Positions 22,370 to 23,632 of a stretch of 64,000 nucleotides of DNA are shown piece after piece (within the stretch, counting starts at the first letter, position 1; the number at the start of each line of letters is the position of its first letter). This DNA comes from the human T2T-CHM13v2.0 reference genome, Homo sapiens. The stretch lies in NCBI RefSeq assembly GCF_009914755.1, contig NC_060930.1. One strand, written 5' to 3'. The notes under the pieces are model-generated. The model was not told the origin of the DNA. It did not search any database and was given only the letters and a program-made list of their open reading frames with translations. Made by a program: the position numbers and the translations under genes.

Positions 22370-22860
22370 CTATTAGAATGGTGAAAATCCAAAAAAACTA
22401 ACAGTATCAAATGCTGGCAGGGATGTGGAACAATATCTCATTCATTGATGGTGGGAATGCAAAATGGTACAGCCACTTTGGAAGATAGCTTGGCAGTTTC
22501 TTAACAAAGCTGAAACCTCATCTTACCAATACAATTCACCAATTGCACAACTAGGTATTTACCCAAGTAAGTTGAAAACTCAAGTCCACACAAAAACCTG
22601 CCCACAAATGTTTATAGTAGCTTTACTCATAATTGCAAAAAAACTGAAAGCAACTAAGATGTCCTTCAAAAGGCAAATGGATAAATAAACTGTGGTATAT
22701 CCATATAACGGAGTATTATTCAGCAATAAAAAGAAATGAGCTATCAAGCCACTTAAAGACATAAAGTAATCTTAAACTCATGTTCCCTAGTGAAAAGAAA
22801 CCATCTGAAAAGGCTACCAAACTATACATATACTATACTATATGATTCATCTATAGAAGG

Positions 22861-23045
22861 TGTTGGGGTTCAATCAGGCTGGTGGGAAAAATATTAAATA
22901 TAGTTATAGTAGTAGTCAAAAACTCTCAGGCCTTTAAAGATAGTTATAGTAATAGTCAAAAACTCTCAGGCCTTCCAAGAGAGTTTTTGACTATTACTAT
23001 AACTATCTTTAATATTTTTCCCACCAACCTAATTGAACCCCAACA
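22861..23045. mobile_element. Fold-back palindrome of LTR22 (HERV-K HML5)-like 5' ends
   Basis: 67-bp inverted arms (63/67 identical) beginning TGTTGGGGTTCAATCAGGCTGGTGGGAAAAATATTA; internal 40-bp tandem duplication; flanks AGAAGG/AGAAGA. Confidence 0.75.
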
Positions 23046-23632
23046 AGAAGACACTCTGAAATAGCCAAAAGGATAGTGACAATGAAAAGATCGATGGTTG
23101 CCAAAACTTTGGAACAGGGGAGTGGGTAACAGATGAATAGGTGGAGCACAGGGGATTCTTAGAGCACTGGAACTATTCTGCAGGGCACTGTAATGGTGGA
23201 TACAGAACAGTGTACACTTGTCAAAACCCATAGAATGTACAGCACAAAGAGTAAACCCTAAACTCTGAACTTCATTTAATAACAAGGTATCAGTATCAGT
23301 TTGATACTAACAAGTGTTAGTGTACAACAGTAACAAGTGTACCCAGGGAAACTGAAACGTAGGTGAGAGGAAATATGTGGGAACTCTCTGTACTATCTGC
23401 TCAAATTCCTGTAAACCTAAAACTGCTCTAAAAAAATAAAGTATTAATTTAAAGAAATTATCTTATGTATAATGCTCATTTTCCCCAAATGCCAAACAAC
23501 AAGGCTCTACTGGAATAAGCAGCTGTTGCTCACTGTTAAGTCTTTATCTACACTAAACTGGCTTTTTATAAATTGTCAGTCACTTTCAGATACGCTCAAA
23601 TAATGACCACATAAATTACGGGTAGGCTCTGG

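What the first reader, a model, noticed from the sequence alone, without database searches (positions are those of the whole stretch)
22855..23051. MITE-like fold-back element made of two inverted retroviral U3 ends
Seen: a 185-bp insert in an L1MC. Its arms 22861-22927 and 22979-23045 are reverse complements (63/67), the loop is AGGCCTTCCAA, there is a 40-bp internal tandem duplication (22894-22933/22934-22973), the termini are TG...CA, and the flanks are AGAAGG/AGAAGA. Knowledge (recalled): TGTTGGGGTTCAATCAGGCTGGTGGGAAAA is the 5' end of LTR22 (HERV-K HML5), and HERV-K integration gives about 6-bp TSDs. Inference: a short native hairpin (AACTCTC-loop-GAGAGTT) self-primed snap-back synthesis. 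That produced a mini DNA with two U3 att ends, which was integrated by integrase. This would be an aberrant reverse-transcription product rather than a solo LTR, and possibly a small undescribed family.
Basis: partly seen in the sequence, partly recalled or inferred. Interest (0 to 1): 0.75.

Follow-up and report, generated by a model that had tools for sequence, protein, structure and literature searches.

The report
Retroviral mini-insert with two left ends
This 185-base palindrome in human DNA is made of two inverted copies of the left end of an ancient retrovirus, and it was likely pasted in by the virus's own integrase as a copying accident; five similar one-off inserts from other retroelement families suggest a recurring, likely undescribed by-product of retroviral replication.

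Summary
Observation confirmed. On the minus strand the element reads LTR nt 1-86 of a betaretroviral family (tRNA-Met primer site, so very likely HML-5/LTR22), turns at a native 8-bp hairpin and runs back to nt 1; a 40-bp unit is duplicated. Both ends stop exactly at the LTR's first base, the flanks are a 6-bp direct repeat (5 of 6; chance about 0.8%), the family's solo LTRs have 6-bp duplications, and the host L1 has gained about 7 bases and lost none. It is single-copy, so not a family or a MITE. Flank-blind genome searches found four more two-U3-end minis in an LTR5-like family (three of three readable with 5-6-bp duplications; one holds a piece of integrase gene) and one MaLR candidate. 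Three MaLR fold-backs made in place look different: the inversion runs 10-28 bases into the flank and there is no duplication. Best reading: plus-strand snap-back during reverse transcription, then concerted integration of two U3 ends (0.72). How the second end arose, and primate orthologues, are untested. I found no description in 10 paper searches, but key papers were not held. New variant of a known kind; probably inert.

The parts
22855..22860 (+). left copy of the 6-bp target-site duplication; its last base is probably the changed one
   Evidence: 5 of 6 match to 23046-23051; most L1 relatives carry the right copy's last base at that position
22861..22927 (+). left arm = LTR nt 1-67 (U3 start, TG terminus)
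   Evidence: 94% to solo LTR L003 nt 1-67; two changes (LTR nt 39, 52) each shared by only 1 of 15 relatives
22894..22933 (+). first copy of the 40-bp tandem unit (LTR nt 34-67 plus half of the loop)
   Evidence: one breakpoint falls at about loop nt 5|6 of 11, 1 nt of overlap (sequence)
22934..22973 (+). second copy of the 40-bp unit; 22934-22967 is the inner arm, 34 of 34 complementary to 22979-23012
22960..22986 (-). native LTR hairpin at the turn: 8-bp stem (LTR nt 60-67 with 79-86) and 11-nt loop 22968-22978; the 8 nt at 22960-22967 can be read as either arm
   Evidence: present in the solo-LTR relatives; sense 1-86 and antisense 67-34 overlap by 8 nt
22960..23045 (-). right arm = LTR nt 1-86, read through the native hairpin (second U3 end, TG terminus at 23045)
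   Evidence: up to 97% to dispersed LTR 5' ends; two changes (LTR nt 15, 19) each shared by 1 of 15 relatives
23046..23051 (+). right copy of the 6-bp target-site duplication
   Evidence: no inverted copy of the opposite flank (run of 0 nt)
22740..23300 (+). host L1-type repeat interrupted by the element (it extends further; only this stretch was tested; subfamily label recalled)
   Evidence: 40 scored relatives at 71-85% besides self for 23046-23300 (39 of 40 rows); both flanks align to the same relatives; 19 host bases between two anchors against 12 in 13 of 20 relatives

Best explanation
The element is two inverted copies of the left (U3) end of a betaretroviral LTR, turned at a hairpin native to that LTR and flanked by a 6-bp direct repeat; it likely arose when plus-strand viral DNA stopped near nt 86 and primed on itself during reverse transcription, and the viral integrase then likely inserted two such U3 ends together. 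Shown: the anatomy, the native hairpin, exact ends, the duplication, single copy. Inferred: (1) snap-back, which works within one molecule only on the plus (LTR-sense) strand, the strand that starts at U3; (2) concerted integration, from the family-length duplication; (3) the source of the second end. For (3) I lean 60:40 to two separate hairpin DNAs paired in one intasome, after which host repair opened and joined the hairpin caps, over one hairpin re-copied by RT into a 145-bp duplex with a later 40-bp duplication. It has no function that I can show and has not multiplied.
For: Arms are LTR nt 1-86 and 1-67 and nothing else of the LTR or provirus lies in the window. Turn with 8-nt overlap at a hairpin found in relatives. 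Inversion stops at the terminal base, 0 nt into the flank, whereas 3 of 3 in-place MaLR fold-backs run 10, 23 and 28 nt into the flank with no duplication. Flanks 5 of 6, chance 0.7-0.8%; 17 of 24 relatives show a 6-bp duplication with 0-1 mismatch at a CA end (some are segmental copies). Host gained 7 nt over the modal L1 spacing. No base is private to both arms, as expected if they separated at insertion. Three further two-U3-end minis found blind to flanks all have 5-6-bp duplications (per-locus chance 1.2%); a fourth holds a piece of integrase coding sequence between its arms, which a solo LTR cannot supply in place. Self-priming of strong-stop DNA is described for the HIV-1 minus strand in vitro (PMC6088434, passages). 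One-ended integrations usually leave much larger duplications or deletions (PMC5041404, passages). For two molecules: the 40-bp unit breaks at the loop centre; L084 reads as two joined L076-like units; L072's arms are only 99 of 133 identical; L076 is 95 bp, short for one duplex to bring both ends together (DNA stiffness, my knowledge).
Against: No orthologue or empty site from another primate could be seen. The element carries 4 private changes in 185 nt where about 10 are expected (P about 0.02), and the inner arms are perfect; this hints at a younger middle copy or self-correction, which favours a later in-place origin of the 40-bp unit. Absence of shared private bases is weak evidence (about 3.7 expected only if the fold-back were very late). 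Self-primed products were not seen in endogenous HIV-1 reactions and are described as dead ends (PMC6088434, passages); plus-strand snap-back was not found in my paper searches. In-place fold-backs at LTR 5' ends do occur (3 cases). No two-U3-end insert turned up with four other family patterns.
Confidence: 0.72

Rival explanations
1. Integrase joined the U3 ends of two longer viral DNAs (an inverted dimer); the long palindrome later collapsed by central deletion to the native hairpin.
For: Explains exact ends and the duplication equally well; arm lengths vary from about 20 to 213 nt among the class; L072's unlike arms.
Against: Needs a second, large event at every locus; all six survivors are under 400 bp, though the searches only looked up to 300-400 bp; L076 and L084 share one turn near LTR nt 76 to 22-24, which suits a preferred priming site.
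Confidence: 0.1
2. One U3 end was inserted by integrase; the other side was finished by host repair that folded back at the hairpin and copied to the end of the viral DNA.
For: One-ended integration with the aberrant end joined to viral sequence in either orientation is described (PMC5041404, passages); copying would stop at the end of the viral DNA.
Against: Those events usually give duplications of hundreds or thousands of bases, or deletions (same paper), not a family-length repeat; four of four readable betaretroviral cases have 5-6 bp.
Confidence: 0.08
3. An ordinary solo LTR was rearranged in place by replication template switching (four-point model): out at nt 86, back along the arm, and in again at the LTR's 3' end, so the old duplication survived.
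For: Such switches are common in human DNA (PMC5453318, passages) and occur at LTR 5' ends (L070, L071, L073); the low mutation count would suit a later event; the 40-bp unit may well be such an event.
Against: Both the end of the inverted copy and the return point, about 500 nt away, would have to hit LTR termini to the base with only CA in common; the three controls overshoot by 10-28 nt, and two of them visibly return into LTR-like sequence (family reading recalled); no shared private bases; cannot make L077's integrase piece.
Confidence: 0.07
4. It is a DNA-transposon MITE (MADE1/miR-548-like) or a copy of a mobile palindromic family.
For: Palindromic, and it scores 48 bits against the mir-548 model with some letter identity in the outer stem.
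Against: 48 bits is far under the 90-bit gathering score and many unrelated hairpin models score alike; the arm is collinear with LTR starts that continue as 490-600-bp LTRs; single copy.
Confidence: 0.02

Closest known systems
HERV-K(HML-5) solo LTR (LTR22; pairing of names from PMC4724089, passage)
   Same: Same U3 start (up to 97% over 86 nt), TG...CA ends, 6-bp duplication, single insertion site.
   Different: Holds only nt 1-86; no rest of U3, R or U5; the right end is a second U3 end in inverted orientation; cannot arise by LTR-LTR recombination.
Self-primed strong-stop DNA (HIV-1 minus strand, cTAR hairpin; PMC6088434, passages)
   Same: A nascent DNA end folds on a native hairpin and is extended on its own strand.
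   Different: Here it would be the plus strand and U3, and the product reached the germ-line chromosome; the HIV product is described as an in vitro dead end.
Aberrant one-ended retroviral integrations (ASLV, HIV-1; PMC5041404, passages)
   Same: Truncated viral DNA with viral sequence in inverted orientation.
   Different: Those have one normal junction and usually large host duplications or deletions; this has two normal-looking U3 junctions and a 6-bp duplication.
Short-range template-switch inversions (four-point model; PMC5453318, passages)
   Same: Makes a perfect inverted repeat from a short native one.
   Different: Those need not respect element ends and make no new target duplication; the three controls found here overshoot the LTR end.
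MITEs such as MADE1 (miR-548 source)
   Same: Short palindrome with inverted termini and a target duplication.
   Different: Termini are retroviral, copy number is one, no transposase family fits, Rfam score is below threshold.

Membership tests
HERV-K(HML-5)/LTR22-derived sequence | Arm is the 5' end of a dispersed LTR family | tested here: met
   80 scored matches; relatives continue as 490-600-bp LTRs ending in CA; one fetched provirus of a related subfamily has a purine tract directly before its 3' LTR start
HERV-K(HML-5)/LTR22-derived sequence | Primer-binding site complementary to tRNA-Met | tested here: met
   L042 has a primer-site-like stretch 2 nt after its LTR; a pattern built on it found two genes that ARAGORN calls tRNA-Met(CAT), 13 of 14 nt matching L042; other tRNAs were not compared; HML-5 site is Met per PMC3778440 (passage)
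HERV-K(HML-5)/LTR22-derived sequence | Betaretroviral pol behind the LTR | tested here: met
   RNase H (L042) and integrase zinc finger (L040) in 2 of 10 stretches scanned; the only PDB match of the RNase H piece is 7SR6, E 1.6e-13 (that this is HERV-K polymerase is recalled)
HERV-K(HML-5)/LTR22-derived sequence | Match to the Dfam/Repbase LTR22 models and subfamily | not testable with these tools
   No such library; the LTR22 label rests on recall plus the primer site
Solo LTR | Complete U3-R-U5 between target duplications | tested here: not met
   Only nt 1-86 present; no other piece in the window
Concerted integrase product | TG...CA ends at the exact viral terminus on both sides | tested here: met
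Concerted integrase product | Target duplication of the family's length, no host loss | tested here: met
   5 of 6; family 6 bp; host excess 7 nt over the mode
Concerted integrase product | Empty orthologous site with one copy of the 6-mer | not testable with these tools
   No other primate genome is held; L1 paralogues used as a stand-in
MITE / MADE1 | Many copies of the same palindromic unit | tested here: not met
   Junction found only here at up to 3 mismatches
MITE / MADE1 | mir-548 model at gathering score | tested here: not met
   48.3 against 90 bits
In-place template-switch inversion | Inverted copy independent of element ends, return near the exit point | tested here: not met
   0 nt overshoot here against 10, 23, 28 nt in L070, L071, L073

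The most novel reading that the evidence does not exclude
Betaretrovirus-like ERVs and MaLRs repeatedly put tiny two-U3-end DNAs into the germ line: short plus-strand by-products of reverse transcription, snapped back or annealed to each other, were paired by integrase without any U5 end. This would be an undescribed class of insertion, in vivo evidence that an intasome accepts two U3 ends from separate or very short DNAs, and a route by which LTR elements make MITE-like hairpins.
Probability: 0.55. Interest if true: 0.75.

Novelty: new variant of a known kind. Interest (0 to 1): 0.62.

Why it matters
If right, the genome keeps fossils of a reaction known mainly from test tubes: self-primed strong-stop-type DNA and same-end pairing by integrase. 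It would show that such products are not always dead ends, give natural substrates for asking how intasomes choose their two ends (U3-U3 found in 6 cases, U5-U5 with a duplication in none of those examined), explain a kind of near-perfect hairpin that repeat annotation splits into two unrelated LTR fragments, and flag a small insert type that integration-site assays of retroviral vectors might miss. No function for this locus is implied.

Tried and rejected
Rfam scan: only generic hairpin matches, all under gathering. Same-turn family: none; the pattern would have caught 14 of 21 fetched relatives had they turned the same way. Tail-to-tail searches in this family: 8 and 4 matches, of which only this locus is LTR-derived on the printed sequence; the second would catch about 93% of pairs of fetched relatives, an upper bound because they are the closest ones. 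The 5'-end list showed 100 of 191 matches, with this locus the only close opposite-strand pair among those shown. Two-template origin of this element's arms: L008 shares both right-arm changes, but L018, 11.6 kb away and probably its partner LTR, lacks them, so I treat it as coincidence. U3-U3 patterns for four other families (labels recalled: LTR12, LTR7, MER9, MER11) gave 4, 2, 2 and 6 matches, none with an LTR start at both ends on the printed 80 nt (not fetched); one search was a badly built joint pattern and says nothing. U5-U5: 0 matches for this family; 9 matches for MaLR, 6 of them fetched in 5 loci, none with a duplication; not tested for the LTR5-like family. The first spacer estimate was spoiled by a small repeat in the left flank and was redone with anchors. 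Papers not held: Lavie 2004, Oh 2006, Oh 2008, Varadarajan 2013. PMC4255032 was read in passages and is not relevant.

Full report
1. Observation. The structure is as described. Arms 22861-22927 and 22979-23045 are 67 nt and 94% complementary, and a 40-nt unit is repeated at 22894-22933 and 22934-22973. The inner pair 22934-22967 / 22979-23012 is 34 of 34 complementary around an 11-nt loop. The fold is far beyond chance (z = -15.3). The termini are TG and CA and the 6-bp flanks match at 5 of 6; such a match occurs at 0.7-0.8% of positions.

2. What the arms are. A DNA search of the genome gave 80 scored matches. Read on the minus strand, the element is nt 1-86 of those relatives, then nt 67-34 antisense, then half of the loop and nt 67-1 antisense. 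The relatives continue as LTRs of 490-600 bp; 17 of 24 examined have a 6-bp duplication with at most one mismatch at a CA end (four of the 24 are segmental copies of one insertion, and the search window allows some chance hits). One relative is followed by a primer site that matches tRNA-Met at 13 of 14 nt and by an RNase H piece whose only PDB match is 7SR6. HML-5 is the HERV-K group with a Met primer site, about 55 million years old (PMC3778440, passages), and is paired with LTR22 (PMC4724089, passages). The label LTR22 was not checked against a repeat library. No other piece of the LTR or provirus lies in the window.

3. The turn. The relatives carry an 8-bp stem (nt 60-67 with 79-86) around the same 11-nt loop. 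The element leaves the LTR exactly at the end of that stem, so 8 nt can be read as either arm. Within one molecule this works only on the LTR-sense strand, which in reverse transcription is the plus strand that starts at U3 (established retrovirology). Self-priming of this kind is described for the HIV-1 minus strong-stop DNA, as an in vitro dead end that nucleocapsid suppresses (PMC6088434, passages).

4. The site. Both flanks align to the same L1 relatives. Between two anchors the window has 19 host bases against 12 in 13 of 20 relatives: a gain of 7, of which a 6-bp duplication explains 6, and no loss. The inversion ends at the terminal base and does not enter the flank.

5. Age signals. 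The arms differ at 4 of 67 positions, two private changes on each, and share no private base. Relatives differ from each other at 7.3 of 67, so 4 is lowish but not unusual (P 0.12). Over all 185 nt there are 4 private changes where about 10 are expected (P about 0.02), and the inner arms are perfect. I cannot explain this fully; a younger middle copy or hairpin self-correction would do it.

6. Not a family. The junction is found only here at up to 3 mismatches, and two tail-to-tail patterns return no other LTR-derived locus of this family (sensitivity). Rfam gives only generic hairpin matches under gathering, mir-548 at 48 of 90 bits.

7. But a class. I repeated the tail-to-tail search with short end motifs of other families (family names recalled); these searches are blind to the flanks. 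For an LTR5-like family, searches gave 3 and 16 matches (controls 0 and 3); I fetched 9 loci, chosen from the printed sequence, and 4 are built from U3 pieces with an LTR start at both ends. L076 (95 bp) has 5 of 6 flank match, L085 (361 bp; LTR nt 1-213 plus antisense 155-1) 5 of 6, L084 (146 bp) 5 of 5; three solo relatives of L085 have duplications of 6, 6 and 5 bp. The chance per locus is 1.2%, about 2 in a million for three. L077 (214 bp) lies in a microsatellite, so its flanks cannot be read, but between its arms is about 100 nt of integrase coding sequence that starts just after an internal purine tract of the provirus. None overshoots the LTR end by more than 1 nt. The other five fetched loci are not recognisably LTR-derived and have no duplication; two of them overshoot. 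For MaLRs, one search gave 17 matches (control 1); 6 were fetched, 4 have an LTR start at both ends. Three of these (L070, L071, L073) run 10, 23 and 28 nt into the flank and have no duplication: in-place template switches of the kind modelled in PMC5453318 (passages), and a useful control. The fourth, L072 (283 bp), stops at both ends, has a 4-of-5 flank match (chance 2%) and arms only 99 of 133 identical; it is a weaker candidate, since two separate insertions with a deletion between them could mimic it. Four other family patterns gave nothing. U5-U5 searches gave 0 matches in this family and no duplication in 5 MaLR loci fetched; the LTR5-like family was not tested, so the U3 bias is only partly shown.

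8. Mechanism. Shown: anatomy, native hairpin, exact ends, duplication, single copy, and the contrast with in-place events. Inferred: plus-strand DNA stopped near nt 86 and primed on itself; integrase inserted two U3 ends in concert. A snap-back product has one end only, so a further step is needed. Either two hairpins were paired in one intasome and host repair opened and joined their caps, which would give the 40-bp unit in the same event (one break at the loop centre, one in the arm), or RT re-primed at the purine tract and copied one hairpin into a 145-bp duplex, with the 40-bp unit added later. I lean 60:40 to the first because of the loop-centred break, the dimer-like build of L084, the unlike arms of L072 and the shortness of L076; the low mutation count of the middle copy pulls the other way. 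Overall confidence 0.72. Rivals: collapse of a long inverted dimer (0.10), one-ended integration with host repair (0.08; such events usually leave large duplications or deletions, PMC5041404, passages), in-place switch on a solo LTR (0.07), MITE (0.02).

9. Novelty. Aberrant integration, self-priming and template-switch inversions are each known. Ten full-text searches (listings and abstract starts, with passages read from six papers) showed no description of short germ-line inserts with two U3 ends and a canonical duplication. The library lacks most subscription papers, four directly relevant ones were not held, and I read no supplements, where individual proviruses of this shape could be listed. 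I score it a new variant of a known kind, interest 0.62: a clear mechanistic fossil with a testable class behind it, but with no sign of function.

Noticed in passing
L085 = G000:C1:230097460-230097820: 361-bp two-U3-end insert of an LTR5-like family (label recalled): about 150-bp near-perfect arms, 6-bp flanks 5 of 6; the cleanest other member, 98% to its closest solo LTRs, so young enough for ape orthologue tests.
   Followed up: partly
L076 = G000:C1:30752203-30752297 and L084 = G000:C3:182297620-182297765: 95-bp and 146-bp two-U3-end inserts that share a turn near LTR nt 76 to 22-24; L084 reads as two such units joined; flanks 5 of 6 and 5 of 5.
   Followed up: partly
L077 = G000:C1:82060944-82061157; L083: Two U3 arms around about 100 nt of integrase coding sequence that begins just after an internal purine tract resembling a central plus-strand primer site; sits in a microsatellite at an Alu tail.
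   Followed up: partly
L072 = G000:C23:120465397-120465679: 283-bp MaLR insert with LTR starts at both ends, arms only 74% identical, 5-bp flanks 4 of 5; possible two-template product.
   Followed up: partly
L070 (C1:103003004), L071 (C16:9255989), L073 (C18:79849043), L086 (C7:154517183), L087 (C12:25965006): In-place fold-back inversions that continue into the flanks; the first three are at MaLR 5' ends.
   Followed up: partly
L002-L023, L042:694-761: The subfamily closest to the arms has LTRs of about 575-605 bp against about 490 bp in others; the extra 3' part resembles the primer-site and leader region, and a 43-nt piece recurs just downstream in L042.
   Followed up: no
window 23010-23034 (minus): The arm shows some letter similarity to the mir-548/MADE1 stem in the Rfam alignment, and the right arm's two private changes increase it; probably coincidence.
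   Followed up: partly
window 22821-22842: Small tandem expansion in the host L1 just left of the insert, absent from most L1 relatives.
   Followed up: no
L040 = G000:C4:88452000-88460000: Internally deleted provirus of a related LTR subfamily (LTR starts 3.6 kb apart) with an integrase zinc-finger remnant; its 3' LTR is cut short by other repeat sequence.
   Followed up: no
L088 = G000:C20:41737110-41737171: 62-bp near-perfect palindrome with TG...CA ends and no duplication; origin not determined.
   Followed up: no
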